A stretch of 42,364 nt of DNA from Kiritimatiellia bacterium (GCA_051892815.1 JBJFGP010000174.1:1-42364), one strand, 5' to 3'. Numbered from the stretch's first letter, positions 3,716-26,403 are shown. Numbers and translations: made by a program. The notes: a model not told the origin generated them from the sequence alone.

Positions 3716-4768
3716 CTAGTGCTCCGCCTCGCCCTCGTGGAACGAACCGTCCGCGTGAAAGTGTCCCGAGGCCCCCTTCTCCCCCGCATCAAGCTGCGAA
3801 ACCAGCGCGTAGGCCCCCTCCACCACCACCTCGTCCGACGCCCCGATTCCCTCGACCGCCGCACGACCCTCGCGCTCCGCCAACACACGAACCGGACGCG
3901 CCTCAAAGTGGTCAGACTCCCCCTTCTCCCGCACCAACACCACCAGTTCAAGCCCACGCCGCACCACCGCGCGAGCCGGAACCGTCAGCCGCTCCGCCCC
4001 CCCCTTCGGAGCCAGCCACACCTCCGCCCGCTCCCCAGCCAACGCACCCACCCCCTCCGGCTCCGACAACCTCAGCCGCACCATCCCCTCCGCGCCCGAC
4101 GGCAAAACCGCGTACCTCGCCGGCTGTCCCCCGACCGACACCGATGCTCCATCCTTCAGCCCGCGCCACACCCCCGAAGGCACCTCCAGCGTCAGCGCCA
4201 ACGCCCCCTTCCGCACCAGCCGCACCAGCGAAGCCCCCCCCTCCACCTGCGCCAAATTGCCCGCGTCAAACCCCGACACCACCCCCTCGCACGGCGCCAA
4301 AAGCCGCCACACCCCGCCCGACACCACAACCCCGGAAAGCCCATAGCCCGACATCTCAGACACTACCCTCCCCAACGCCGACTCAAGTTCCGCATGACCC
4401 GTCCCCAACCGCTCATAATGCCCCAGGCGCGCCCTCAACCGAGCCCCCTCCGCCTCAAGCTCCCGCAGCCGAGGTGCCTCCACCTCAGCCAGCGCCTCGC
4501 CCGCCTTCACCCCCGAACCAATCCGAGAAACCAGCCGAACCCGACCCGCCAACGGCGTCCCCAGAACCAAACGATCCTCCTCCGCCACAGCCCAGAAACC
4601 AACCCCGCGCCAGCCCTCCTCCAACACCATCCGCCGCGGACGCTCCACCCTCAAACCAAGCGCCTCCCGAGCCCACTTCCCGACCGTCACAGCCTCCTCG
4701 TGGTGCCCTTCAGCCAACACCGCCAAAGGCAACCAGACCAACAGACAGATACCAACCTTTCCCATCAT
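3716..4768 (-). CDS. efflux RND periplasmic adaptor (membrane fusion protein, CzcB/CusB-like) with His-rich C-terminal tail
   Basis: 350 aa with an N-terminal signal/anchor (MMGKVGICLLVWLPLAVLA), a coiled-coil segment (APRLRELEAEGARLRARL) and a beta-barrel-like C-terminal half. The tail reads GHFHADGSFHEGEAEH. Its ATG overlaps the upstream stop (ATGA). Confidence 0.85.
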   Translation of the reverse strand: MMGKVGICLLVWLPLAVLAEGHHEEAVTVGKWAREALGLRVERPRRMVLEEGWRGVGFWAVAEEDRLVLGTPLAGRVRLVSRIGSGVKAGEALAEVEAPRLRELEAEGARLRARLGHYERLGTGHAELESALGRVVSEMSGYGLSGVVVSGGVWRLLAPCEGVVSGFDAGNLAQVEGGASLVRLVRKGALALTLEVPSGVWRGLKDGASVSVGGQPARYAVLPSGAEGMVRLRLSEPEGVGALAGERAEVWLAPKGGAERLTVPARAVVRRGLELVVLVREKGESDHFEARPVRVLAEREGRAAVEGIGASDEVVVEGAYALVSQLDAGEKGASGHFHADGSFHEGEAEH

Positions 4769-7700
4769 CTCTCAACCTCCTCCAGCCAGCACGCATACCC
4801 CAATTCCGCCGCCGCATCCAGCAACGAATCCGACCACGACAACTCCGACAACGCCCCCTCAAGACGCTCCTCCATCAACTCAAAACACCCCACTGCATCC
4901 ACCTCCCCCGAACGATACAACCCCCACGGATCCAACACCCCCGCCGCCGGCCGGTGTGCCAACAGACGCGACACCTTCCCGGCAACCTCCGCCGCCGCAG
5001 ATACCCTCCTCTTCCAGCACATCGCAACCTCCTCCAGCGACACCTCCCGCCTACCCGTCGCCTCCGCGATTGCCAACCGGTTGCGGTTCCAGATAGGCAG
5101 ACTCACCCCCACGCCGAACCCGAGACGGTCGCTCCCGTCTTCCCGTTCGTAGAGCGGCGAGAGCGACACCTCCGGGTACTGCCGGCGCACTTCAAGCCGC
5201 AACTCCGCTTCGCTTGCCCCGAGCCGCCCCATTGCCGCCAAAACCTCCGGATGGCGCACAAGATCGAGTGCCGCAGGAAGTTTCAGCGGCCCCCTCGGAA
5301 GCGCAGGAATCCCCTCGTCCAAAGCAATCTCCGAGCCCGGATGGAGCCCGAGCAGCCGCTTCAGATCTGCCTCCGCCTCGGCCTCTTTCTCGCGCAACTC
5401 CTGGGCCAGATGCTGCCTTTCGTGGTGGCGGCGGCGTACCGACGAGGCGGTCCCTTTGGAGAGTTCCCCCGCCTGCGACAGGTGGTCGACCGCCGAGAGC
5501 AGAGATGCCAACCTGTCGGACCCCAAGTAGTCAACCACCGTCTCACGGCGGCGGCGTATCCCCTTGAGGCGGAGCCAGGCACGAACGGCGGCGTTGGAGG
5601 TCGAGAGTTCGGCCGATTGGAGGGCAAGTCTCTCGGCTTGGGTGTACATCTCCCGGGCGCGGCGCTGGAGCGAAGGGGTTCCGGAGATGGGCAGGACGAG
5701 GCCGATTCCTGCGCCGAAGAGGAAGGGGTGGTCGGACGGCTGTGCGATGCGCAGGAGGTCGAAGGAGAGGTCGGGATCTGCCCAGTAACCGGAGGCTTGG
5801 GCGGCTTTCCGGGTGTGGGCGAGTTTGGTTCGGGCGAGGCTGAGTTCGGGGTTGCCGATGAGGGCGGTCCTGGCTGCGTCGGCGGGGGTTTGGAGGGTAA
5901 TGCGGGCGGGGCGCCATTGGTCGGATCGGGTCTGGAGGTCGAGTTGGGCGGGGTGGTAGGCGATGCAGCCGGCGAGGAGGATGGGTAGGCAGGCGAGGAG
6001 GGCGGTGGTTGGCACCTTTGGGGTGCGTTCGGTGAGGATGACGAGTGCGGGGAGTACGAGTTGGTTGAGGAGGAGGGCGCCCAGGATGCCGCCGAACTGG
6101 ACGGTTGCGAGGGGGGCGAGGAGTTCGCCTCCGGGGGTGTCGGCGCTGAGCATCAGGGGGATGAGTCCGAGGAGGGTGGTGAGGGTGGTCATTATGATGG
6201 GGGCGAGGCGTTCGCGGGCGCCTTCGCGCAGGGCTCTCGGGAGGGGCTGGCCTTGGTCGAGGCGCTGGAGGAGGGCGTTGAGCAGGAGCAGTCCGTTGCG
6301 CAGGGCAAAGCCTGTGACGGTGACGAAGCCGACTAGGGCGCTGACGCTGAGGCTGGTGTGGGCGAGGCGGGCGGCCAGGATGCCGCCGATGAGGGCGAGG
6401 GGCAGGTTGACGAGGGCCAGGAGGGCGTGGCGGAGGCGTCCGAGGCTCAGGGTGAGGAGGGCGAGGATGAGGGCGAGGAGGGCGGCGGAGGCGAGCAGGA
6501 GGGTGCGGGTGGCGCTTTGGCGGGCTTCGTGGCTGCCGGTGAGGGTGAGGTCGCAGCCTAGGTTTTGGGCGGCGGGTTGGAGGCGTTGGAGGAGGGTTTG
6601 GACGACTTGTCCGCTGCTGGCTTTGCCGTCGAGGTTGCAGGAGATGAGGGCTTTGCGGCGGCCGTTTTCGCGCAGGAGCATCAGGGGGGCTTCTTCGGCG
6701 CGGAGGGTGGCGACGGATGCGAAGGGAACGGGCTGTCCGCGGCCACCGACGAAGGTGAATCGGCGCAGGTCGCGTTCGGTCTGGCTGGAATCGTCGGCGA
6801 GGCGGATAGCAACCTCCCGGCGCGATTGGTTGGCAAGAATGGTTCCCACAGGTAGGCTCCTGTAGGCGGCGGAGATTTGTATCCCCGCATCCCTAAGGTT
6901 CATACCTTCCGCGGCGAGGGCTGCGGGGTCGTAGTCGATGCGCAAGGTACGGCCCGTGGCCTCGCGGTTGGCGCGAATGTCGGCGATGCCGGGCACCGAC
7001 GCGATGAGGGGTTTCAAGGTTTGGACCGCCGCGCGCAAACGATTCGGATCTTCGCAATAGAGGTTCACGGCCAGTTCCGCCTCGGTCCCGGAGAGGATGG
7101 CGCTGATGCGGTGCTCGATGGGATAGCCGACCATCACGCTGGCGCCGGGTATCGATCCGAGCCGTTCGCGGATGGCTTGGCGCACCGCAGAGGCGTCCCC
7201 GTCGAGGTGGACGATGAACTCGGTACTGGAGACAGGTTCGGCGTGCTGATCGCGCTCCGCACGCCCCGTCCGCCGCACGACCTTCCCGACGCCCGGGATG
7301 GAGGAGAGCACCCGACCGGCGTGCCGAGCCGTACGCTCCGCCTCCGGCAGCGACGCCGAAGGACTCAGCGACAAGAGCACATTCAGGGTCGGCTCGTGCA
7401 GCGGCGGCAGGAAACTCGTGCCCAGCCTCGTCGCCAAAGATGCCGACCAGACCGCCAACAGCAAGACGGGAATCAGCGTCAGAATCGGGTGCCGAATCGA
7501 GCACTCCAAACACGGCGCGTAGAGCCGATCCAAAAGCCTCATCAGAGGCGCCCGCCCCTTCGAAACGCCCCCGCCCGAACCACCCTCAAGCAACAGAGAA
7601 AGGCACGGCACCACCACCACCGCAACCGCGAACGACGCCCCCAGAAGCGCCAGATACGCCTTCCCCAAAGGCTTGAAAAATCGCCCCTCCAACCCGGGAA

Positions 7701-9054
7701 GCAGAAACAGCGGAACAAACGCCAGCACGATAATCGCTACCGAACAAAGCACACTCGGAAACACTTCTGCCACCGCATTCGCAACCACCTCCCGCCGCGA
7801 CAGATACCCCCCTTCGTCAAGCCTTCTGCGTATCGCCTCGGCAAAGACAATGCCCGAGTCGACAATGTCTCCAGCCGCAACAGCCACCCCACCCAATGTC
7901 ATCACATCCACCCCAATCCCAAGCACCGGAAAGAGCGAAACACCCGCCAGAACCGTCAGAAAAAGCGACGCCAAAACCACCAGAATCGAACGCCATTTCA
8001 GGAGCGTCAGAGCCAATACCACCAGCACGATCCAAAGCGTGTCCCGGAGGATTCCGCGCACACCCCGGAGCGACGTTTCTATGAAGTCCGCCTGGCGGTA
8101 GGCGGCAGGTTCGACAGTCAGTCGTGCGCCATTCCGGGCGGCGAAGGAAGCCAGCACCGAGTCGATTTTCCGCGTTAGTTCGAGGGTGTTTCCACCGGGC
8201 GTTTTCTGCACGGAGAGGAGTACCGCTTCAGCGGAATCGAGGCTAGCAGAACCCCTTCTGGGTGCGCCCGAAAGGGTGACATCAGCGGCTTGTCGGAGTC
8301 GGAGAGAAGGGCTCAAAGGGAGGTCGCGGAGGGCTTCGAGCGTCTCTACCCGGGCGGTTTGTTCGAGGGGGATTTCTTCAGACCTGTCGTCCGGAAGGTA
8401 GCCTGCGACGGGGCGCGAGAGGGCGGCACGAAGGGTATCGGCGAGTTGGTCTGGGCGGATGCCGAGGGAAGCCAGGCGGATGGGGGTGGTGTTGATTCGA
8501 TATTCGGGAAGGGCACCGCCCATGACGGCGACTTCGCCGACACCTGGGATGGCGAGGAGTTGGGGCCTGAGGTCGTATTCGGCTCGTTCGCGCAGGTCGA
8601 GGAGGTTGGCATCTTTTGTTGGAATCAGTGCGATGAGTTGGATCTCGCCGGTGACTGCCAATGGGGGTGCGATCTCGGGTTTGGCCTCTGGGGGGAGGTC
8701 GGTTTGGAGGCGTGCGAGGCGTTCGTAGAGGCGGGTTCGGGCGCGGTCCAGGTTTTCGCGCCAGTCGAGGTCGATGGTGATGATGGAGAGTCCGATGGTG
8801 GAGGAGCTGCGGATGGTGCGGACTTGGCCGATTCCGTAGGCGGCGGTCTCGAGGATTCGTGTGACGCGCTGTTCGGTTTCGGCGGCGGTGAGTCCGGGGG
8901 CTTCGGTCTGGAGAACGAGTCGCGGGGGTTGGATGTCGGGGAAGATGTCGACGGGCAGCCCGCGCAGTCCCAGGAGGCCGGCGAGGGCTACGGCGGCTAG
9001 GGCTGCGAGGGTGGTCTTGGGGTGGTCGAGGAGGGGTGCAAGGAGGGGGCGCAT
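4765..9054 (-). CDS. RND efflux permease (heavy-metal CzcA/CusA-like, aa 1 to ~1010) fused in frame to an outer-membrane factor (TolC/CzcC-like lipoprotein, aa ~1015-1429)
   Basis: 1429-aa uninterrupted ORF. The N-terminus reads ...LPVDIFPDIQPPRLVLQTEAPGLTAAETEQRVT, and 12-TM RND topology is apparent. An internal lipobox ALLACLPILLAGC has its Cys codon at 5965..5967. It is followed by about 399 aa of OMF-like sequence. Confidence 0.85.
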   Translation of the reverse strand: MRPLLAPLLDHPKTTLAALAAVALAGLLGLRGLPVDIFPDIQPPRLVLQTEAPGLTAAETEQRVTRILETAAYGIGQVRTIRSSSTIGLSIITIDLDWRENLDRARTRLYERLARLQTDLPPEAKPEIAPPLAVTGEIQLIALIPTKDANLLDLRERAEYDLRPQLLAIPGVGEVAVMGGALPEYRINTTPIRLASLGIRPDQLADTLRAALSRPVAGYLPDDRSEEIPLEQTARVETLEALRDLPLSPSLRLRQAADVTLSGAPRRGSASLDSAEAVLLSVQKTPGGNTLELTRKIDSVLASFAARNGARLTVEPAAYRQADFIETSLRGVRGILRDTLWIVLVVLALTLLKWRSILVVLASLFLTVLAGVSLFPVLGIGVDVMTLGGVAVAAGDIVDSGIVFAEAIRRRLDEGGYLSRREVVANAVAEVFPSVLCSVAIIVLAFVPLFLLPGLEGRFFKPLGKAYLALLGASFAVAVVVVPCLSLLLEGGSGGGVSKGRAPLMRLLDRLYAPCLECSIRHPILTLIPVLLLAVWSASLATRLGTSFLPPLHEPTLNVLLSLSPSASLPEAERTARHAGRVLSSIPGVGKVVRRTGRAERDQHAEPVSSTEFIVHLDGDASAVRQAIRERLGSIPGASVMVGYPIEHRISAILSGTEAELAVNLYCEDPNRLRAAVQTLKPLIASVPGIADIRANREATGRTLRIDYDPAALAAEGMNLRDAGIQISAAYRSLPVGTILANQSRREVAIRLADDSSQTERDLRRFTFVGGRGQPVPFASVATLRAEEAPLMLLRENGRRKALISCNLDGKASSGQVVQTLLQRLQPAAQNLGCDLTLTGSHEARQSATRTLLLASAALLALILALLTLSLGRLRHALLALVNLPLALIGGILAARLAHTSLSVSALVGFVTVTGFALRNGLLLLNALLQRLDQGQPLPRALREGARERLAPIIMTTLTTLLGLIPLMLSADTPGGELLAPLATVQFGGILGALLLNQLVLPALVILTERTPKVPTTALLACLPILLAGCIAYHPAQLDLQTRSDQWRPARITLQTPADAARTALIGNPELSLARTKLAHTRKAAQASGYWADPDLSFDLLRIAQPSDHPFLFGAGIGLVLPISGTPSLQRRAREMYTQAERLALQSAELSTSNAAVRAWLRLKGIRRRRETVVDYLGSDRLASLLSAVDHLSQAGELSKGTASSVRRRHHERQHLAQELREKEAEAEADLKRLLGLHPGSEIALDEGIPALPRGPLKLPAALDLVRHPEVLAAMGRLGASEAELRLEVRRQYPEVSLSPLYEREDGSDRLGFGVGVSLPIWNRNRLAIAEATGRREVSLEEVAMCWKRRVSAAAEVAGKVSRLLAHRPAAGVLDPWGLYRSGEVDAVGCFELMEERLEGALSELSWSDSLLDAAAELGYACWLEEVER

Positions 9055-19835: not shown

Positions 19836-20747
19836 CTAATCGATTGCTCTATCGGCGAATCTGCGGCGCAGTTCGTCGACGAAAAGCTGCCCAGAAGGGG
19901 TCAGGGAGATGCCGGATCTGCGGATGAATCCGACGCGTATCTGGTCGTCTATCTTGAGTGGGACGGAGATGATGTCGGCGCTATAGGCTTTGCTGCGGGC
20001 GCCGGAAACGACGGTGAATCCGTCGAGGTCGAGAACGAGTCGGGTCATGGTCGCCCTATCGCGAACGCGGATGTTTTTCCTGCGGTCGATGGCGGGCATA
20101 ATTTCCTCGGAGAAGTAGAGGGCGTTTTCAGTCCCTTGCTCGTAGGTGAGGTAGGGATAGGGGTCGAGATCGGCGGGGGTGACGGCTTTCTTTCTGGCGA
20201 GGGGGTGCTTGCGTCCGAGGAAGACATGGGGCTGGGCGGAGAAGAGTTCTTCGAAGAGGAGTTCTTCTTTGCGGAGGATTTTGCGAATGGGGGCTTCGTT
20301 GCGGCGGGAGAGGTAGATGAGGCCGATTTCGCTGCGGTGGCGGGCGACATCATCGATGACTTCGCTGGTGACGGTCTCGCGGATGGTGAAGTCGTAGGAG
20401 GCGGAGGGGGTTGCCTTGACGACGGGGATGAAGCATTCGGCGACGAAGGCGTAGTGCTGGCAGGATACGGCGAACTGGGGGCGGCGGACGGCTTTGCCGG
20501 TGTATTTCTCCTGGATGCGGGCGGCGTCGTCGAGTATCTGGCGGGCGGAGGCGAGGAACTCTTCGCCCTCGCGGGTAAGGGTGACGCCGCGGGAGGTGCG
20601 GTTGAAGATGGCGATGCGGAGTTCCTCTTCGAGGGTGCGGATGGCTTCGGTGAGGGTGGGCTGTGTGACGAAGACGCGGCGGGCGGCTTCGCTGAAGCTT
20701 CCGCAGGCGGCGACGGCGTCGGCGTACTTGAGTTGCTGGAGGGTCAT
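19836..20747 (-). CDS. LysR-family transcriptional regulator
   Basis: N-terminal wHTH MTLQQLKYADAVAACGSFSEAARRVFVTQPTLTEAIRTLEEEL, about 300 aa. ATGA overlap with the bioB stop. Confidence 0.9.
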   Translation of the reverse strand: MTLQQLKYADAVAACGSFSEAARRVFVTQPTLTEAIRTLEEELRIAIFNRTSRGVTLTREGEEFLASARQILDDAARIQEKYTGKAVRRPQFAVSCQHYAFVAECFIPVVKATPSASYDFTIRETVTSEVIDDVARHRSEIGLIYLSRRNEAPIRKILRKEELLFEELFSAQPHVFLGRKHPLARKKAVTPADLDPYPYLTYEQGTENALYFSEEIMPAIDRRKNIRVRDRATMTRLVLDLDGFTVVSGARSKAYSADIISVPLKIDDQIRVGFIRRSGISLTPSGQLFVDELRRRFADRAID

Positions 20748-21739
20748 CGGAGGTCTGGGGCGACATCGAATCCGGCGAGCGCCGCGAGGTGGCGGTCGTC
20801 GTCGAAGTCTGCGCCGGGGGTGGTGAGGAGGGGGCCTGCGATGCCGGCGGATATGCCGGCGCGGATGCAGCGGGCGGCGGTCTGGTCGTCAATATCCCGG
20901 CGTCCGCCGGCGAAGCGCAAGGGCGTGTCGGGGTTGGCCAGGCGGATGAGGGCGATGGAGGCGATGATGCGCGAGGGGGTGAGCGGGGTGGAGTGGCCGA
21001 GGGGTGTGCCGGGGATTGGATGGAGGATGTTGACGGGGATGGAGTCGGGGTGGATGGTGCGGAGGGCGAAGGCGAATTCGACGAGTTCTTCGTCGGTCTC
21101 TCCCATGCCGATGATGCCGCCGCAACAGGTCTGGAGTCCGACGCGCTGGGCAGCGCGGAGGGTATCGATTTTCTCCTGCGTGGTGTGGGTGGTGCAGAGT
21201 TGGGGGAAGCGGGAAGGGGCGGTTTCGAGGTTGCAGTGGAGGCGTTCGAGTCCGGCCTCTTTGAGGCGGCGGAGGGCCTCTTCGGGAATCAATCCGATGG
21301 AGGCGCAGAGGTGCAGGCGGGTGGTTTGGCGGAGGATTCGGAGGGTGTGGCAGAGGGCTTGGATGTCGGCTTCCGGGAGGGTGCGTCCGCTGGTGACGAT
21401 GCCGAAGCGGGTGGCACCGTCGGCCTCTGCCTTTTGGGCGGCTTGAAGGCAAGCATCGCTGCCGATCCATTCCCACTTTTCGCAGGCGGTCTGCCAATGG
21501 GCGGACTGGGCGCACCATTTGCAGTTCTCGGAACATCGGCCGGATTTGGCGTTGACGATGGCGCAGAAGTCGAAGCGGCGGGGGGCACAGGATTGCGTGA
21601 CGCGGTGGGCGGCTTCAACGAGGCTATCTAGGGGTTCGCGGCACAGAATGTGGAGTGCCTCCGAGGGGGTGAGGTTGCCGCCGGCGATGATGCGGTCGGC
21701 CAAGTCGGAGGCGGTGGGGTGCGTGGGGGTGGGCTCCAT
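20744..21739 (-). CDS. bioB: biotin synthase
   Basis: CSENCKWCAQS is the radical SAM motif. Also GATRFGIVTSG, HCNLET and CCGGIIGMGE. Confidence 0.9.
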   Translation of the reverse strand: MEPTPTHPTASDLADRIIAGGNLTPSEALHILCREPLDSLVEAAHRVTQSCAPRRFDFCAIVNAKSGRCSENCKWCAQSAHWQTACEKWEWIGSDACLQAAQKAEADGATRFGIVTSGRTLPEADIQALCHTLRILRQTTRLHLCASIGLIPEEALRRLKEAGLERLHCNLETAPSRFPQLCTTHTTQEKIDTLRAAQRVGLQTCCGGIIGMGETDEELVEFAFALRTIHPDSIPVNILHPIPGTPLGHSTPLTPSRIIASIALIRLANPDTPLRFAGGRRDIDDQTAARCIRAGISAGIAGPLLTTPGADFDDDRHLAALAGFDVAPDLR

Positions 21740-21932: not shown

Positions 21933-24900
21933 CTAGAAGGGTATCTCAGGCACGAATGGACCGCTGTGGCGGGCGACCCAGTCGAGGATTTCGCCGTAGC
22001 AGGGAAGGTGGCGCAAGACGGCGTCGTTGCCCACGAGGTAGAAGCGTTCGCGGGCGCGGGTGACGGCGACATTGAGGCGGCGGTCGAGCGGATTGGCTTC
22101 GTCTGATGCGGCTGTCTCGGAGAGCAGAGCGGCTTCGGAAAGGCTCTGGATGACGGTTGAAAAGAGGATGACGGCACGCTCGCTTCCCTGGAAGCGCTCG
22201 ACCGTGTCGACGAGGATTCCATTGGCGACCTCGGCATCGAGACAATGCGCAATCGCGCCGCGCACGGCGGCAATCTGATTGCGGAAAGGAACGATGACAC
22301 CTATCTCGCCGGGCGCATAGGAGCGGGGCTCTCCGCCCTCTTGGAGCGGGGCGCGGCAAGGGTTGGAAACAAGCAGGCGGATGATGCGTGCGCAGCACTC
22401 GGCTTCCTTGGAACTGACCTTTTCGAGGGGCATCGCGTCCTCGTCGAGAAGGGGATAAAAGCCGAACCGGGTGGTCAAGGTGTAGTGCGCGAAGGGGTCT
22501 TCCGAATCGGGCGGCTCTGGGATTCCGGTGAGCTGGTGGGGTAGCTTGCCATCGTCGAGATGGCCGCCATAGAAGCAGGCGTTGCAGAACTCGGAAATGG
22601 CCGGATGCATACGATACTGCGTCCTGAGAGCAGCAAACCTGTTGGGGCGTTCGTGGGATATTCTGCGGAGCCGTTCGAAGAAGGATTCGCGGCAGTCGTT
22701 TAGCCCGAGTTTGTTCAATTTGGGCTCGCGGATGCGGGACTCTTCCGGGCTTTGCTGGACGACAGCGGGGAGTTGGCGATCGTCTCCGATGAAGATGAAT
22801 TTGCCTATCAGGGGTTCGTCGGAATCGGAGATTTTCTCGCCCATCGCGGCGTAGCGTTTGGCGCAGAAAAGGGGGAGGATATGTGCGTCGAGAAGTTGGG
22901 AGGCTTCGTCTACGATGGCGAGGTCGAAGTGTCCGTAATAGCCGAAGATGGGATGGTCTGGGGTGAGGGCGGCGACGGGCGCGACGATGATGCGGACGCG
23001 GTCGGCATAGGCTTGGAATTGACCGCGATTGTCGAAGCCCATCTCGTTCGCGAATCGGGTCGGAAGATTAGGCTCGGGGTGGCATTTGAGGGGGTTGCCG
23101 AGGCGCAAATAGATGTCCTCCGGGGCGGGCGGGGAGAGGGAATCTCCGGCGATTCTCCGTTCCAGCATGCGGCAAATTTCGTCGGTCGCGCGGTAGGTGT
23201 AGGCCAGCAGAAGGATGCGCATGCCGGGTGTCGCCATCGAGAGGTCGACCAAGGCGCGCATGGCCCGGCTGGTCTTGCCGGTGCCGGGGGGGCCCCAAAT
23301 CAGGAACCAGTCGCGGGCCTGCCAGGCGCGGCGGAGTAAGGTATGCAGGAATGGGTAGCGTTCCTTGACAACTTCGTCCCCCATGGGTAGGCACCTATCG
23401 GGGTCGGTCGTAGGCATCACTTGGTTCAGGACCAACTTGCGACGCCGTTCGTTGCCGATTAGGAGTTGGCCGAGTCCTTGCAGGCTGGAGGTGTGGAAGG
23501 TGGCGGGGCGGGGTTCGACGGCATACTCGGAGTCGGGGGCGATTTCGAAGAGGGATTCCGCCTGCGGATTGTCGAGTTGCAGGACAATCGATTCGGCGGT
23601 CAGGCGGGCAACGGTGGCCGCGAAGAGGCGAGAATGGGCAATGCTTTCGTCGGGCTTCCCTGACGAGCGGAAGAGGAAGACGCTGTCGCCTTCGCGGATG
23701 GAGCAATGCTTGTTGAGGGGCGATTGCGTAGTGTCGAACTCGAACGACAATAGGCGACCGAGCGCGTCTTTCCCGGGCATCCCCTTGATGCGGAGGTTCG
23801 CCAGGCGGAGCCCCGCGCGTGCCCGCTCCTGAGGCGGTCGGAGCCAAGCCGCGCCGCCCGATCCGTGCAACCCGCCGCGGCTGGAGTAGACCATCTCGGC
23901 GACGAGAAATTGCAACCAACGGTAGAGGTAGAGGCGCGTGATCGGGTCCGCCTGGTGGAAAGCAGCAAGCAGTTTTTCTACGCTGGACCGAAGGTGATTA
24001 TTCCAGTATTTCTCCCCGTATTCTTCTCTGCGAAAGTCCTCGGGTGTGGCTTTCCCGACGAGCGCCCGGAAGGTACCAGTTCGGATGAATTCAAGCAATG
24101 AAACGATGTCGTTCCTGCACTCGACGAGGAGGCTCTCCGCCGTACGACCGGGGGCTTCCCAAACCTTGGAAATAGCCTCTTTCTCGAATAGGATGCCGTC
24201 GGGTTCACAAGTATAGTTGTCCCTGATTCCTTGCGAGTAGCAGAGGGCTTGGTTGATGGCTTGGGGTGGGATTCCTTGGGCGAGTTCGAGGAGTTTGGCG
24301 TAAAGGATGGGCTGGACGGCGTGCTCGCGCTTGGGGTTGTTTCCTTGGTAGGCATCCCACTTGCCGGACTTGAGTTCGAGGATGGTGGCTGTCTTGGTTT
24401 TGGGATCGCAGGCGAGTGCGTCGACCTGCGCAGCGAGGCCATAATCGGGGGAGTAGAGTGGGGCTTCGAGGTGCCATTGGTTGGGCTGGACGCCGTAGGT
24501 TTCGGGGATTGTTTGGGTGATGAATCGTTGGATGTTGCCATCCTGCAGTTTACATTCATTGCCCCATTTTTTGTCGAGAGCAGCGACTGTGAGTTCAAGG
24601 GAATTTTGGGTGAAGAAGGTTTTCAGGCGCGCGTTGGAATTCTCTCCGCTGCCGGCACAGGCATCGGCCAAGGCGAGGTTGGCAAAGTCGCCTCGCAAGA
24701 GGAACTGCCGGGCGCTTTGAGTGTCGTCCTTGAGTAGGCACTCGGGGAGGATGGCGTTGAGCCAGAAGTAGAGCGCTGAGTTGTCGAAGTCCTGGGCGTG
24801 TCCGATGCTCTGCGGGGAGATGAGGAAGTCCGGCTCAAGGACGATGTGTTTGGCGCGGAGGCGTCCGGCGGGCTCCTTCGCGGGGGCATCGAGGATGAGG

Positions 24901-26156
24901 CTGACGGAGGCGCCGGGGTGGATGCAGTCGGGGATTGCGCCGTCGTTCCCCTCGCCCGCGCCGCTCCATACGACCTCGACCTGTTCGCCCGTATCGGCAT
25001 CGCAGAAAAGTGCCTTCCTTTCGGGGGCGATGGTACGCACCTCCGCATAGATAACCTTGCTACCAGTCGCCCCATAAGATACGCTTTCGCGGTAGGCAAT
25101 CCTATCAACCTCTTCCGCCAGACGCTTGGGCAAAGCCATCCTCGTCAAATGCCAAACTGTCAGACAGTAGGTCTTGAACGACTCCAGCCAATCCGCCTCC
25201 GAAACCTCCAACCCCGGTGCCCGCGCCAGACGGTTCCCCAACAGACGAAACCGGTTCACCCAAGCCAGCAAAGCCCGATCGCCCGCAAACAGTCCCGCCA
25301 GAAACTCGCAGGCAGTTGAGCCCGACTCCTCCGAGTAGCGACGCCGGAACTGATCCCAAAGAAGTTGGCGGAATAGACCGAACAGACGCGAGACCTTCTC
25401 GCGCGGCGTCTCAGACGACTCCCACACCCGCGCCGCCGCCTCATATTCCGGAGAAACCACCTCCTCGACGCCTTGCCCCAGCGCCCCATCCTGCCCCCCC
25501 GCCACCATCGGAGTAGTCCCCACCATCTGCGCCCGCTTGAGCCCCAACACCTTCTCCACCAACGCACGCATCTCCTCATCCGACAGACAGTTTCCCCGCC
25601 CGCCGGCGAATTGACAGACCACCTCCGCAACCTTCGAAACCGGCACCACCTTCAACCACAAACACCCCTCCCCAAGCGCATCCCAATCCGCCGACGCCTG
25701 GTTCGAAAAGACAATCACCGCAGAAATAAACTTCTTGAAATCGAACGAGCCGCCCGCCCCTGCCTCAGGCAAGAAAACCAACTGCTGGCCCTTCATCAAA
25801 GCCGCCGTCTGCCGGCGATAATCCGCCACCTGTCCAAGCGGCGTGCGACCCGGCGCCCCGCCCTTGACCTCCTCCCCCTTCTCGCTACCACAGTACCACT
25901 TTCCGTCAGTCCCCTGTACAATCTTCCCACCGTAGTTCTTCAACTCCAGAATGACCAGAGCCCGCCCCCTCAAAACCGCCATATCAACCGACGAGCGATA
26001 TGTCTTATTGTACCCCGGAACCTTGAAATTGCACAGAATGTGACACTCATCCCTCAGCGGTTCCAACGCCTCCTTGAGTTCGCGCACCACCTGCGAAACC
26101 ATCCCAGCCTCGCCCGTGTTCTCATACTCCTCCCCAATCCAAACCTCAACGCTCAC
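21933..26156 (-). CDS. 1407-aa multidomain protein: N-terminal NERD nuclease-related domain, central RecB/Cas4-type PD-(D/E)XK nuclease, C-terminal SF1B (Dna2/Upf1-type) helicase
   Basis: GTG start with a GGAG Shine-Dalgarno 8 nt upstream. NERD: VDMAVLRGRALVILELKNYGG. RecB-like nuclease: GLAAQVDAL..ATILELKSGK..QPILY. Helicase motifs: IWGPPGTGKT, AIVDEASQ, IGDDRQLPAV, RTQYRMHP, VDTVERFQGSE and LNVAVTRAR. Confidence 0.9.
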   Translation of the reverse strand: MSVEVWIGEEYENTGEAGMVSQVVRELKEALEPLRDECHILCNFKVPGYNKTYRSSVDMAVLRGRALVILELKNYGGKIVQGTDGKWYCGSEKGEEVKGGAPGRTPLGQVADYRRQTAALMKGQQLVFLPEAGAGGSFDFKKFISAVIVFSNQASADWDALGEGCLWLKVVPVSKVAEVVCQFAGGRGNCLSDEEMRALVEKVLGLKRAQMVGTTPMVAGGQDGALGQGVEEVVSPEYEAAARVWESSETPREKVSRLFGLFRQLLWDQFRRRYSEESGSTACEFLAGLFAGDRALLAWVNRFRLLGNRLARAPGLEVSEADWLESFKTYCLTVWHLTRMALPKRLAEEVDRIAYRESVSYGATGSKVIYAEVRTIAPERKALFCDADTGEQVEVVWSGAGEGNDGAIPDCIHPGASVSLILDAPAKEPAGRLRAKHIVLEPDFLISPQSIGHAQDFDNSALYFWLNAILPECLLKDDTQSARQFLLRGDFANLALADACAGSGENSNARLKTFFTQNSLELTVAALDKKWGNECKLQDGNIQRFITQTIPETYGVQPNQWHLEAPLYSPDYGLAAQVDALACDPKTKTATILELKSGKWDAYQGNNPKREHAVQPILYAKLLELAQGIPPQAINQALCYSQGIRDNYTCEPDGILFEKEAISKVWEAPGRTAESLLVECRNDIVSLLEFIRTGTFRALVGKATPEDFRREEYGEKYWNNHLRSSVEKLLAAFHQADPITRLYLYRWLQFLVAEMVYSSRGGLHGSGGAAWLRPPQERARAGLRLANLRIKGMPGKDALGRLLSFEFDTTQSPLNKHCSIREGDSVFLFRSSGKPDESIAHSRLFAATVARLTAESIVLQLDNPQAESLFEIAPDSEYAVEPRPATFHTSSLQGLGQLLIGNERRRKLVLNQVMPTTDPDRCLPMGDEVVKERYPFLHTLLRRAWQARDWFLIWGPPGTGKTSRAMRALVDLSMATPGMRILLLAYTYRATDEICRMLERRIAGDSLSPPAPEDIYLRLGNPLKCHPEPNLPTRFANEMGFDNRGQFQAYADRVRIIVAPVAALTPDHPIFGYYGHFDLAIVDEASQLLDAHILPLFCAKRYAAMGEKISDSDEPLIGKFIFIGDDRQLPAVVQQSPEESRIREPKLNKLGLNDCRESFFERLRRISHERPNRFAALRTQYRMHPAISEFCNACFYGGHLDDGKLPHQLTGIPEPPDSEDPFAHYTLTTRFGFYPLLDEDAMPLEKVSSKEAECCARIIRLLVSNPCRAPLQEGGEPRSYAPGEIGVIVPFRNQIAAVRGAIAHCLDAEVANGILVDTVERFQGSERAVILFSTVIQSLSEAALLSETAASDEANPLDRRLNVAVTRARERFYLVGNDAVLRHLPCYGEILDWVARHSGPFVPEIPF

Positions 26157-26277
26157 AGCACATTCTCCTCTCGACTAGATACCCTAAACGGGGGAAGTCT
26201 ACCACACCTTCACGAGCGAGACAAGCGCTTTTTCCCGGGGCTTTTGGAAATAACCTAACTTCGAAATATTTGTCCTG

Positions 26278-26320
26278 CCGCGCGACCTTCGGCATTTATC
26301 CCCAATGCCGCTTCGCGCGG
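26278..26320 (-). terminator. composite stem-loop immediately 3' of the tRNA (CCGCGCGA..CGGCATT-GGGGATA-AATGCCG..TCGCGCGG)
   Basis: Nested inverted repeats read directly. On the minus strand, TTTTTC precedes the hairpin rather than following it. Confidence 0.3.
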
Positions 26321-26326
26321 GAAAAA

Positions 26327-26403
26327 TGGTAGGGCAGGCGGGGATCGAACCCGCGGCCTCCGGATTAGGAATCCAACGCTCTGTCCAACTGAGCTACTGC
26401 CCT
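26327..26403 (-). tRNA. tRNA-Arg, anticodon CCU, CCA encoded
   Basis: Hand-folded 77-nt cloverleaf. Acceptor AGGGCAG/CTGCCCT, D stem GCTC/GAGC, anticodon stem TTGGA/TCCGG with loop TTCCTAA, T stem GCGGG/CCCGC with loop TTCGATC, discriminator A, then CCA. Confidence 0.9.

What the first reader, a model, noticed from the sequence alone, without database searches (positions are those of the whole stretch)
21933..26156. Stand-alone 1407-aa NERD + RecB-like nuclease + SF1B helicase gene beside tRNA-Arg: candidate single-gene nuclease-helicase immunity module
My domain reading of the single 4.2-kb ORF is as follows. (a) aa ~10-130 form a NERD-type PD-(D/E)XK module (VDMAV...LVILELKNYGG). (b) aa ~250-560 have no motif I recognise. 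(c) aa ~565-625 form a second, RecB/Cas4-type nuclease core (GLAAQVDAL, ILELKSGK, QPILY). (d) aa ~780-900 are a beta-rich insert. (e) aa ~940-1385 are a complete Dna2/Upf1-type SF1B helicase (GPPGTGKT, DEASQ, GDDRQLP, QYRMHP, RFQGSE, VAVTRAR). The gene is monocistronic, wedged between the bioB promoter and a tRNA gene, and flanked by housekeeping genes. By eye it is less GC-rich than its flanks (not computed). Nuclease + SF1B is the logic of Dna2 and of Nhi-type anti-phage proteins. The extra NERD head and the roughly 300-aa unassigned region are not explained by either.
Basis: partly seen in the sequence, partly recalled or inferred. Interest (0 to 1): 0.72.

Follow-up and report, generated by a model that had tools for sequence, protein, structure and literature searches.

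The report
Orphaned NERD–Dna2-like nuclease-helicase defence gene
This 1407-residue gene fuses a NERD nuclease to a complete bacterial Dna2-like nuclease-helicase; it is probably an anti-phage effector that in related genomes ends a multi-gene cassette, and here the partner genes have been cleanly deleted.

Summary
The ORF is real: 21933-26156, minus strand, 1407 aa, GTG start with an RBS.

Two corrections:
- The "unassigned" residues 250-560 and the "beta-rich insert" are ordinary parts of a Dna2 body: helical region, OB fold, nuclease N-half and beta-barrel. A model of aa 216-940 matches Dna2 (5EAN) over 672 columns. The Dna2 Fe-S cysteines are absent.
- The gene stands alone only secondarily. 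In its closest relatives the tRNA-Arg/bioB interval also holds a DUF1848 gene, an SF2 (RecQ/DpdF-like) helicase and a coiled-coil protein, plus a DpnII R-M system in one relative. DUF1848 and a protein sharing a ~200-aa N-domain also precede distant homologues. In one contig the same NERD head is fused to the SF2 helicase instead. The window has a precise deletion of these partners.

The orphan is not decaying. Its branch dN/dS is 0.19 and every catalytic residue is intact.

The Dna2-like body belongs to a large family (986 clusters). Headless members lie beside recA or uvrD, so a repair role remains a live rival.

Verdict: a new variant of nuclease-helicase defence proteins, of moderate interest.

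The parts
21933..26156 (-). Complete ORF, 1407 aa plus stop: NERD head fused to a Dna2-like nuclease-helicase
25512..26156 (-). aa 1-215: NERD-type PD-(D/E)XK head. E12/E16, D58, E71-x-K73. This head is replaced by other heads in relatives.
   Evidence: Pfam NERD 37.8 bits. Residues conserved. Model pLDDT 70 with an alpha-beta-beta-beta-alpha-beta core. Foldseek hits are only weak and are mostly to PD-(D/E)XK nucleases. Head is 39% identical to the head of an SF2 helicase, P0017.
25452..25511 (-). aa 216-235: variable low-complexity linker, with indels between orthologues
   Evidence: pLDDT below 50
25062..25451 (-). aa 236-365: helical N-terminal region of the conserved body
   Evidence: predicted helices; conserved in kinase-headed and headless relatives
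24837..25061 (-). aa 366-440: five-stranded OB-like beta domain
   Evidence: secondary structure. The model has CspA/IF1-type partial Foldseek hits and aligns to Dna2. Assigning those hits to this segment is inference.
23847..24836 (-). aa 441-770: RecB/Dna2-type nuclease domain. P442-D443, E564, D579, E594-x-K596, Q615..Y619. No Fe-S cysteines.
   Evidence: invariant columns in 142 representatives; Foldseek to Dna2 5EAN; weak PADLOC DruK PD-(D/E)XK hit
23352..23846 (-). aa 771-935: stalk and beta-barrel (strands at aa 785-882), placed as in Dna2/Upf1
21936..23351 (-). aa 936-1407: Upf1/Dna2-like SF1B helicase. Walker A GPPGTGKT 955-962, DEASQ 1083-1087, GDDRQLP, QYRMH, VERFQGSE, NVAVTRAR.
   Evidence: AAA_11/AAA_12; phmmer to Dna2, E=1.5e-20; motifs invariant
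26157..26187 (-). RBS and proximal 5' region, and the deletion junction (about 26186/26188). Below the junction the sequence matches the segment just upstream of the NERD gene in L001 and L002.
26188..26326 (-). tRNA-proximal flank, 96% identical to the region that precedes the DUF1848 gene in L001. Contains a weak promoter-like TTGTCT-17-TAGACT (8 of 12, with TG).
   Evidence: The site is below the scan threshold, so calling it a promoter is inference.
26327..26403 (-). tRNA-Arg(CCT), one boundary of the variable island
20744..21739 (-). bioB, the other boundary of the island. It starts a syntenic housekeeping block shared with L002.

Best explanation
What it is. The gene encodes a two-nuclease, one-motor enzyme. 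The body (aa ~236-1407) is a bacterial Dna2-like machine with this domain order: helical region, OB fold, RecB-type nuclease, beta-barrel, SF1B helicase.

How the body probably works. By analogy with Dna2, it should load on a free single-stranded DNA end, thread the strand through or past the nuclease, translocate 5'->3' on ATP and degrade the strand.

The head. The N-terminal NERD domain is a second PD-(D/E)XK endonuclease and is interchangeable. Relatives carry a defence-type Ser/Thr kinase, a UvrD+RNase T module or no head at all.

Likely role. The NERD- and kinase-headed branch is most likely an anti-phage/anti-plasmid effector. It normally works as the last gene of a cassette anchored by a DUF1848 protein. 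The cassette also holds a protein with a shared ~200-aa, weakly methyltransferase-like N-domain, fused either to ankyrin repeats or to a RecQ/DpdF-like SF2 helicase, and often a coiled-coil protein.

This genome. The partners were removed by a precise deletion between the cassette's upstream region and the effector's RBS. The effector is left alone beside tRNA-Arg, and it has stayed under purifying selection.

Shown versus inferred. Shown: architecture, conservation, contexts, deletion junction, selection. Inferred: the enzymatic mechanism, the defence function, the role of the partners, and that the orphan still acts on its own.
For: Architecture:
- Pfam NERD, AAA_11 and AAA_12 hits.
- The best PDB sequence match is the Dna2 helicase.
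- An AF2 model of aa 216-940 (pLDDT 74.7) has Dna2 5EAN_A as its top Foldseek hit: E=5e-14, 672 aligned columns. Only one other hit, the Ighmbp2 helicase (4b3f), reaches E<=1e-3 (9.5e-4).
- Catalytic residues of both nucleases and all helicase motifs are invariant.

Modularity of the family:
- Kinase heads occur in P0015, P0016 and P0022 and resemble PD-T4-6 and mad6.
- A UvrD+RNase_T head occurs in P0121, and 17 of 147 representatives have a C-terminal methyltransferase-like tail.

The island:
- L001 (88% orthologue) reads: tRNA-Arg(CCT), DUF1848, 1428-aa DpdF/RecQ-like helicase, coiled-coil, three DpnII R-M genes, the NERD gene, then a cut 137-aa gene at the contig end; L001 matches the window to its end, into bioB.
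- L002, L003 and L011 have the helicase C-terminal end cut at the contig edge, then coiled-coil, the NERD gene and bioB.
- The window matches L001 positions 1-312 and then from ~9977 onward, so the partner genes are exactly missing.
- The sister and the outgroup both have the partners, so loss in the window lineage is the parsimonious reading.

The cassette recurs in distant homologues:
- L009 (38% identity) and L095 (32%): DUF1848, N-domain-ankyrin protein, NERD gene. L096: N-domain-ankyrin protein, NERD gene.
- The DUF1848 proteins are 54-63% identical to one another, and the N-domains are homologous.
- L169: DUF1848, a NERD + N-domain + SF2 helicase fusion (head 39% identical to this gene's head), then a coiled-coil protein.

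Selection:
- dS is 0.255 against 0.19-0.39 for the flanks. dN/dS is 0.38 against 0.02-0.20 for the flanks.
- On the window branch dN/dS is 0.19 (48 synonymous, 29 nonsynonymous changes), against 0.31 in the partner-bearing sister.
- The window copy has only 4 conservative private changes at conserved sites.

A NERD domain acts as the defence effector nuclease in ZwsA.
Against: - There is no experimental evidence for any member of this family.
- No PADLOC or NCBIfam defence model covers more than the helicase or the head.
- Headless members of the same body family sit in housekeeping contexts beside recA (L091) or uvrD/phoH (L094).
- The gene is vertically inherited here and its composition deviates only slightly.
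- Some NERD- or kinase-headed homologues have no DUF1848 nearby: L004, L008 and L097.
- Many contexts are short contigs, and only about nine independent lineages were examined.
- The methyltransferase-like nature of the N-domain rests on sub-threshold hits.
- Only 42 kb of this genome is visible, so the partners could lie elsewhere.
Confidence: 0.6

Rival explanations
1. Housekeeping DNA-repair or recombination enzyme. On this view the gene is a bacterial Dna2-like end-resection or flap-processing nuclease-helicase with an extra NERD nuclease, and its neighbours in other genomes are incidental.
For: - The body family is large: 986 clusters at 50% identity, of which 94 of the top 147 are headless ~1100-aa proteins.
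- Headless members lie next to recA (L091) and next to uvrD/phoH (L094).
- The gene is present at the same locus in all four closest genomes, with dS equal to the flanks and under purifying selection.
- The closest solved relative, Dna2, is a replication and repair enzyme.
Against: - The NERD- and kinase-headed branch recurs in defence-type neighbourhoods and with DUF1848 cassettes.
- The heads are swapped for defence-type kinases.
- dN/dS is 2-20 times that of the flanking housekeeping genes.
- None of 19 more distant Kiritimatiellia-type MAGs has a homologue within 10 kb of bioB.
- Only about 16 full-length homologues were found in 5.8 billion clusters.
Confidence: 0.2
2. Always-autonomous single-gene defence. 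On this view the gene never needed partners, and the DUF1848/helicase/coiled-coil genes are separate systems that insert at the same tRNA hotspot.
For: - The gene persists intact and under constraint without them.
- A DpnII R-M cassette has clearly inserted independently into the same island.
- Homologues in L004, L008 and L097 lack DUF1848.
- Single-protein nuclease-helicases such as Nhi do defend on their own.
Against: - DUF1848 plus an N-domain protein lie directly upstream, with overlapping or short gaps, in lineages only 32-38% identical to this gene.
- The same NERD head is fused to the partner SF2 helicase in L169.
- Relatives carry a methyltransferase-like domain either fused in cis or encoded by a neighbour.
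Confidence: 0.12
3. Functionless relic: an effector stranded by recent loss of its partners and not yet degraded.
For: The partner genes are deleted at this locus and absent from the 42-kb window.
Against: - The 4.2-kb ORF is intact.
- dN/dS on the window branch is 0.19, lower than in the partner-bearing sister.
- Only 4 conservative private changes fall at conserved sites.
- The RBS and upstream region are retained.
- A very recent deletion cannot be excluded.
Confidence: 0.08

Closest known systems
Dna2 nuclease-helicase (eukaryotes and archaea; structure 5EAN)
   Same: - Same domain order: OB fold, RecB-type nuclease, beta-barrel, SF1B (Upf1-like) helicase.
- Dna2 is the top structural hit (E=5e-14, 672 columns) and the top PDB sequence hit for the helicase.
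- A headless relative scores on Pfam Dna2 (PF08696), and archaeal Dna2-like proteins appear among distant hits.
   Different: - No conserved Fe-S cluster cysteines.
- This protein itself has no PF08696 hit.
- It has an extra helical region (aa 236-365) and an N-terminal NERD nuclease.
- It is bacterial, patchily distributed and found in defence-type contexts.
- TM-score is only 0.47, so the domain arrangement is similar but not superposable.
Nhi (nuclease-helicase immunity, SERP2475)
   Same: A single polypeptide combining an N-terminal PD-(D/E)XK nuclease with an SF1B helicase. It defends on its own and needs both activities. This is the closest functional analogy for the orphan state.
   Different: Nhi has an HsdR-like nuclease, a DUF2075/Dda-like helicase and a glyoxalase-like C-terminus. 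No DUF2075 or Nhi-type hit was found here. This protein also has a second nuclease, an OB fold and a barrel.
Mokosh MkoA/MkoC and other Upf1-like defence helicases (CoCoNuT CnuH, PLuB helicase-like protein)
   Same: The helicase domain is related. PADLOC MkoA scores E=8e-37 and NCBIfam PLuB_AAA scores E=1e-36, both over aa ~940-1396 only.
   Different: - The match covers only the C-terminal quarter of the MkoA and PLuB profiles.
- There is no PLD nuclease or MkoB partner.
- The PLuB score is 126 against a cutoff of 999.
NERD-domain defence proteins (ZwsA; PADLOC candidate PDC-M16A; TALON systems)
   Same: A NERD PD-(D/E)XK head with the E...D...ExK residues. In ZwsA those residues are needed for defence. 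The head has weak matches to the N-terminus of PDC-M16A. NERD nucleases accompany defence helicases in TALON.
   Different: [quoted passage not shown] PDC-M16A matches only aa 1-200. None of these has a Dna2-like body.
Dpd/DISARM-type cassettes with DpdF/RecQ-like SF2 helicases
   Same: The partner helicase in the sister genomes scores on DpdF (E=1e-77) and RecQ models. These are multi-gene, helicase-rich, island-borne systems.
   Different: There are no 7-deazaguanine genes, DpdA/B, DrmB or similar. The anchor gene here is DUF1848, which these systems do not use. The window itself has none of these partners.

Membership tests
NERD (PF08378) PD-(D/E)XK nucleases | Profile match above the Pfam gathering score | tested here: met
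   37.8 bits against a cutoff of 22.1, aa 25-150
NERD (PF08378) PD-(D/E)XK nucleases | Catalytic D...(D/E)xK with an upstream acidic residue | tested here: met
   D58 and K73 are invariant; E71 is nearly so (D in P0014). E12 and E16 are at least 90% conserved in NERD-bearing homologues. Activity was not tested.
Dna2 family | Domain order OB, nuclease, barrel, SF1B helicase | tested here: met
   Foldseek to 5EAN_A, E=5e-14 over 672 columns, plus helicase phmmer E=1.5e-20
Dna2 family | 4Fe-4S cluster cysteines flanking the nuclease domain | tested here: not met
   No cysteine is conserved in aa 441-770 in either the 16- or the 142-sequence alignment
Dna2 family | Pfam Dna2 (PF08696) profile match | tested here: not met
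   No hit at E<=1 for this protein. The headless relative P0032 hits at E=2e-5.
RecB-family nuclease | Motifs E / D / ExK / QxxxY | tested here: met
   E564, D579, E594-L-K596 and Q615..Y619 are invariant in 142 representatives
SF1B Upf1/Dna2-like helicase | AAA_11 + AAA_12 matches with intact Walker A/B and motifs III-VI | tested here: met
   42 and 108.7 bits against a cutoff of 27; motifs invariant. The 5'->3' polarity is inferred, not tested.
Nhi | HsdR-like N-terminal nuclease plus DUF2075/Dda-like helicase | tested here: not met
   No DUF2075 hit in Pfam and no Nhi hit in PADLOC. Architecture taken.
Mokosh (type I/II) | Full-length MkoA or MkoC match and a PLD nuclease (MkoB, or fused) | tested here: not met
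   Only profile positions 817-1099 of 1112 are matched. No PLD domain is present in the protein or among its neighbours.
PLuB system helicase-like protein (NF040671) | Score above the curated cutoff | tested here: not met
   125.9 bits against a cutoff of 999, helicase part only
DUF1848-anchored cassette (proposed here) | A DUF1848 gene and an N-domain protein immediately upstream | tested here: not met
   Absent from the window by tblastn. Present in L001, L009 and L095; L096 has the N-domain protein but is cut at the contig edge; L169 has DUF1848 with the N-domain inside the NERD-SF2 helicase fusion. The window gene is an orthologue of a cassette member, not a cassette.
Anti-phage defence system (any) | Protection phenotype | not testable with these tools
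   Requires expression and a phage or plasmid challenge

The most novel reading that the evidence does not exclude
The DUF1848-anchored cassette may be an undescribed class of defence system. It comprises DUF1848, a methyltransferase-like N-domain fused to ankyrin repeats or to an SF2 helicase, an optional coiled-coil protein, and the NERD-Dna2-like effector. In this reading the DUF1848/N-domain pair marks or senses DNA, and the Dna2-like motor-nuclease executes. The window would then be a natural experiment: the executor tolerates loss of the marking or sensing module. That would rule out classical restriction-modification logic and point to an effector gated by DNA ends or structures.
Probability: 0.25. 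Interest if true: 0.8.

Novelty: new variant of a known kind. Interest (0 to 1): 0.55.

Why it matters
- It would add a bacterial Dna2-type machine to the repertoire of nuclease-helicase immunity. The full architecture is OB fold, nuclease, barrel and SF1B helicase, without the Fe-S cluster, and with swappable heads (NERD, kinase, UvrD-exonuclease) or a methyltransferase-like tail.
- It links the uncharacterised DUF1848 family to a recurrent cassette. Only three papers in the searched library mention DUF1848 (two were listed), and the one read does not describe this arrangement.
- The sister genomes, with and without the partner genes at an otherwise ~90-96% identical locus, form a ready-made comparison. 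They can test which components are needed for activity and for self-tolerance.
- The same body family also includes probable repair enzymes. It is therefore a good case for studying how a repair nuclease-helicase is recruited into immunity.

Tried and rejected
- Island integration scars. I looked for direct repeats of the tRNA 3' end flanking the gene and found none.
- Partner genes elsewhere in the window. The 1429-aa ORF at 4765-9054 has the same length as the partner helicase, but it is an AcrB-OEP efflux protein. tblastn with the DUF1848, helicase, coiled-coil and ankyrin proteins found nothing in the window.
- Phage or plasmid carriage. There were no hits in IMG/VR by pattern scan or in INPHARED phages. 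Only two weak hits to headless Bacteroidales proteins appeared in PLSDB.
- Terminators, Rfam families and leader structure. No terminator-like site was found. Rfam found only the tRNA. The leader fold is not better than shuffles, z = -0.5.
- Foldseek of the NERD head. No significant match was found (best E=0.03). The weak hits are mostly PD-(D/E)XK nucleases, which is supportive of the fold class only.
- Homology between the partner N-domain and the C-terminal methyltransferase-like tail of sister clades. Only weak, SAM-motif-centred similarity was found, so it is not claimed as shown.
- Pfam scan of the 142-sequence alignment.
- Literature on 'PLuB'. Nothing was found.
- Presence/absence at bioB in more distant relatives. 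They lack the gene, but tRNA-bioB synteny is also lost there, so the test is weak.

Full report
**Observation**

A GAGGAG Shine-Dalgarno lies 9 nt upstream, and all homologues begin with the same MSV(E/K)(V/I)W, so the start is sound.

tRNA-Arg(CCT) lies 170 nt upstream at 26327-26403 on the same strand. bioB lies 193 nt downstream at 20744-21739, with its own promoter-like sites. All other genes identified in the 42-kb window are housekeeping-type: dnaX, recR, an amidase, Tsp, dapF, pta, the thi and sulfur genes, and an AcrB pump.

The gene is slightly AT-shifted. Its GC is 60.7% against 63.9% for the rest, and its GC3 is 74% against 76-84% for the neighbours. That places it in the lowest ~6% of 4.2-kb windows.

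**Anatomy**

- Pfam gives NERD at aa 25-150 (37.8 bits, cutoff 22.1), and AAA_11/AAA_12 at aa 942-1378.
- Against PDB sequences the best match is the Dna2 helicase, E=1.5e-20 over aa 940-1394.
- I modelled aa 216-940 with an alignment of nine family members (pLDDT 74.7).
- Foldseek against the PDB returns mouse Dna2 (5EAN_A) as the top hit, E=5e-14 with 672 aligned columns. The only other hit at E<=1e-3 is the Ighmbp2 helicase (4b3f, 9.5e-4). Partial hits to Upf1-type helicases, OB folds (CspA, IF1) and ATPase-type beta-barrels follow.

- helical region, aa 236-365;
- OB-like domain, aa 366-440;
- RecB-type nuclease, aa 441-770;
- stalk and barrel, aa 771-935;
- SF1B helicase, aa 936-1407.

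Assigning the partial Foldseek hits to particular segments is my inference from the secondary-structure map.

In an alignment of 142 family representatives the invariant columns include P442, D443, E564, D579, E594, K596, Q615 and Y619. The Walker A, DEASQ and later helicase motifs are at least 90% conserved there and invariant among the 16 close homologues. No cysteine is conserved in the nuclease domain, so the Fe-S cluster of Dna2/AddB/Cas4 is absent.

In the NERD head, D58 and K73 are invariant and E71 is nearly so (D in P0014), with E12 and E16 nearly invariant in the NERD-bearing homologues. A model of the head (pLDDT 70) shows the alpha-beta-beta-beta-alpha-beta core. Its Foldseek hits are individually non-significant, but they are mostly PD-(D/E)XK nucleases.

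**The family**

A word-indexed search found only about 16 full-length homologues. Two are close (88% and 82% identity), and one of these is from a Kiritimatiellia MAG. A group lies at 45-47%, one at 38%, and two have a protein kinase in place of NERD.

A profile of the body without the helicase, searched against 1.84 billion representatives, found 986 clusters, 314 of them at E<=1e-30. Of the top 147:
- 94 are headless, tailless proteins of ~1100 aa;
- 14 have the NERD head;
- 17 have a ~300-aa C-terminal methyltransferase-like tail, some together with NERD;
- others have a kinase head or a UvrD+RNase T head.

The kinase head resembles the defence kinases PD-T4-6 and mad6.

Two headless members whose contexts I fetched lie beside recA, and beside uvrD and phoH. 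The body family therefore probably includes genuine repair enzymes.

**The locus in relatives**

The sister contig L001 carries, in order: tRNA-Arg(CCT), DUF1848, a 1428-aa RecQ/DpdF-like SF2 helicase, a 360-aa coiled-coil protein, a three-gene DpnII R-M system and the NERD gene, followed by a cut 137-aa gene at the contig end. L001 matches the window right to its end, which falls inside bioB.

L002, L003 and L011 show the C-terminal end of that helicase cut at the contig edge, then the coiled-coil gene, the NERD gene, bioB and the same housekeeping block as the window. L011 was found through bioB, so it is an unbiased sample.

BLASTN places the window's tRNA-side flank on L001 positions 1-312 (96% identity). 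Everything from 26186 downward matches L001 from ~9977 onward and L002 from 1346 onward. The window therefore lacks exactly the partner genes. It keeps the region that precedes DUF1848 in L001, joined ~30 nt upstream of the NERD start codon.

Both the sister (L001) and the outgroup (L002/L011) have the partners, so deletion in the window lineage is the parsimonious reading. In L001 the R-M cassette is flanked by a ~65-nt duplication of the NERD gene's 5' end, which indicates a separate, later insertion.

**The partners recur in distant homologues**

- L009 (38% identity): DUF1848, then a protein with ankyrin repeats overlapping the NERD gene by 4 nt.
- L095 (32% identity): DUF1848, an ankyrin protein and the NERD gene, inside a clear defence island with an Eco57I/MmeI-like enzyme, an antitoxin, RhuM and a kinase.
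- L096: an ankyrin protein, then the NERD gene.

The DUF1848 proteins are 54-63% identical to each other, more than the NERD proteins are. The ankyrin proteins, the N-terminus of the L001 SF2 helicase and a UvrD-like protein in L095 all share a ~200-aa N-domain (E values 1e-7 to 1e-63). That domain has sub-threshold methyltransferase hits.

L169 encodes DUF1848, then one 1768-aa protein made of a NERD head, the N-domain and the SF2 helicase, then a coiled-coil protein. The head is 39% identical to the window's head, and the helicase is 43% identical to the L001 helicase. The NERD head is thus fused to either of the two helicases of the cassette. This domain-fusion evidence argues that the NERD-Dna2-like protein works with the cassette.

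Not all homologues have the cassette:
- L004 sits among TerB/DnaJ, VWA and an STK_OB kinase.
- L008 sits beside RmuC and VWA/DUF58 genes.
- L097 sits beside an HpaII R-M system.

The NERD + body + methyltransferase-tail clade (L100, L101) also lacks a DUF1848 neighbour.

**Evolution at this locus**

Between the window and L002 the gene has dS 0.255. Eight syntenic neighbours have dS 0.19-0.39. The gene was therefore inherited with its flanks and is not a recent import.

Its dN/dS is 0.38 against 0.02-0.20 for the neighbours, and its amino-acid identity is 83% against 92-99%.

Polarising changes with the trio gives dN/dS of 0.19 on the window branch (48 synonymous, 29 nonsynonymous), 0.31 on the L001 branch and 0.28 on the L002 branch. 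The window copy has only four conservative private changes at family-conserved sites. So the orphan is not decaying, although a recent deletion cannot be excluded.

None of 19 more distant Kiritimatiellia-type MAGs (bioB 58-67% identical) has a homologue within 10 kb of bioB. The tRNA-bioB synteny is also lost there, so this is weak evidence.

**Mechanism (inferred)**

By analogy with Dna2, the body should engage a free ssDNA end, translocate 5'->3' and cut the threaded strand. The NERD head adds a second endonuclease; a NERD domain is the catalytic effector in the defence protein ZwsA.

In complete cassettes the DUF1848 protein, the N-domain protein (ankyrin or SF2 helicase) and the coiled-coil protein presumably sense, mark or gate. 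In this genome the effector stands alone behind the cassette's former upstream region. That region contains only a weak promoter-like site, 8 of 12 matches, below the scan threshold. Read-through from the tRNA promoter is equally possible, since no terminator was found.

**Comparison with known systems**

- It works like Dna2 structurally and like Nhi logically, but it is a member of neither. The Fe-S cysteines and a PF08696 match are missing. Nhi's DUF2075 helicase and HsdR-like nuclease are also missing.
- Matches to Mokosh MkoA/MkoC and to the PLuB helicase-like protein cover only the helicase domain.
- Only three papers in the searched library mention DUF1848 (two were listed); the one read links it to UG25 reverse transcriptases and does not describe this cassette.

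**Verdict**

The defence interpretation is plausible but unproven, and a repair role is the main rival. The "stand-alone" status results from a deletion. I rate this a new variant of a known kind (nuclease-helicase immunity proteins), with interest 0.55.

Noticed in passing
L001:6734-6798 and L001:9977-10045 (window 26112-26178): The first ~45 nt of the NERD gene plus its RBS region are duplicated on both sides of the three-gene DpnII R-M cassette in L001. This looks like the footprint of an R-M insertion between the coiled-coil gene and the NERD gene.
   Followed up: partly
window 4765-9054 (-): A 1429-aa ORF combines a full AcrB/RND transporter (aa 10-1007) with an outer-membrane efflux protein (OEP) domain (aa 1059-1236) in one polypeptide. 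A HlyD-like gene (3716-4768) follows. This is an unusual pump-OMF fusion.
   Followed up: no
window 24837-25061 (aa 366-440, OB-like domain): Against L002 this 75-codon segment has dN 0.135 but dS 0.038 (ratio ~3.6). Against L001 the ratio is 0.74. This could be diversifying selection on the DNA-entry domain or small-sample noise.
   Followed up: no
L169:21-7395: DUF1848, then one 1768-aa protein fusing a NERD head, the shared N-domain and a DpdF/RecQ-like SF2 helicase, then a coiled-coil protein. This is a compact version of the cassette without a visible Dna2-like gene; the contig ends there.
   Followed up: partly
P0015, P0016, P0022 (L008:10001-14686): Dna2-like bodies carrying a PD-T4-6/mad6-like Ser/Thr kinase in place of the NERD head. 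In L004 a separate STK_OB kinase lies two genes upstream of a NERD-headed homologue.
   Followed up: partly
P0121 (1921 aa): A Bacteroidales protein fusing a UvrD helicase with an inserted RNase T/DEDDh exonuclease to the Dna2-like body. It has two helicases and two nucleases in one chain.
   Followed up: no
L091:8027-12471 and L094:7408-14804: Headless ~1100-aa members of the body family sit directly beside recA, or between uvrD/pcrA and a PhoH-PIN gene. This suggests a housekeeping repair branch of the family.
   Followed up: partly
P0050, P0056, P0075, P0155; L100:126-5096, L101:197-5134: NERD + Dna2-like body + a ~300-aa C-terminal methyltransferase-like domain in one ~1630-aa protein. The layout resembles a fused restriction-modification enzyme, and there is no DUF1848 neighbour.
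   Followed up: partly
window 26270-26318 (-): Nested inverted repeat immediately after the tRNA (CCGCGCGA..GGCATT..AATGCC..TCGCGCGG), conserved in L001. There is no T-run, and the fold energy of the whole leader is not unusual (z = -0.5).
   Followed up: partly
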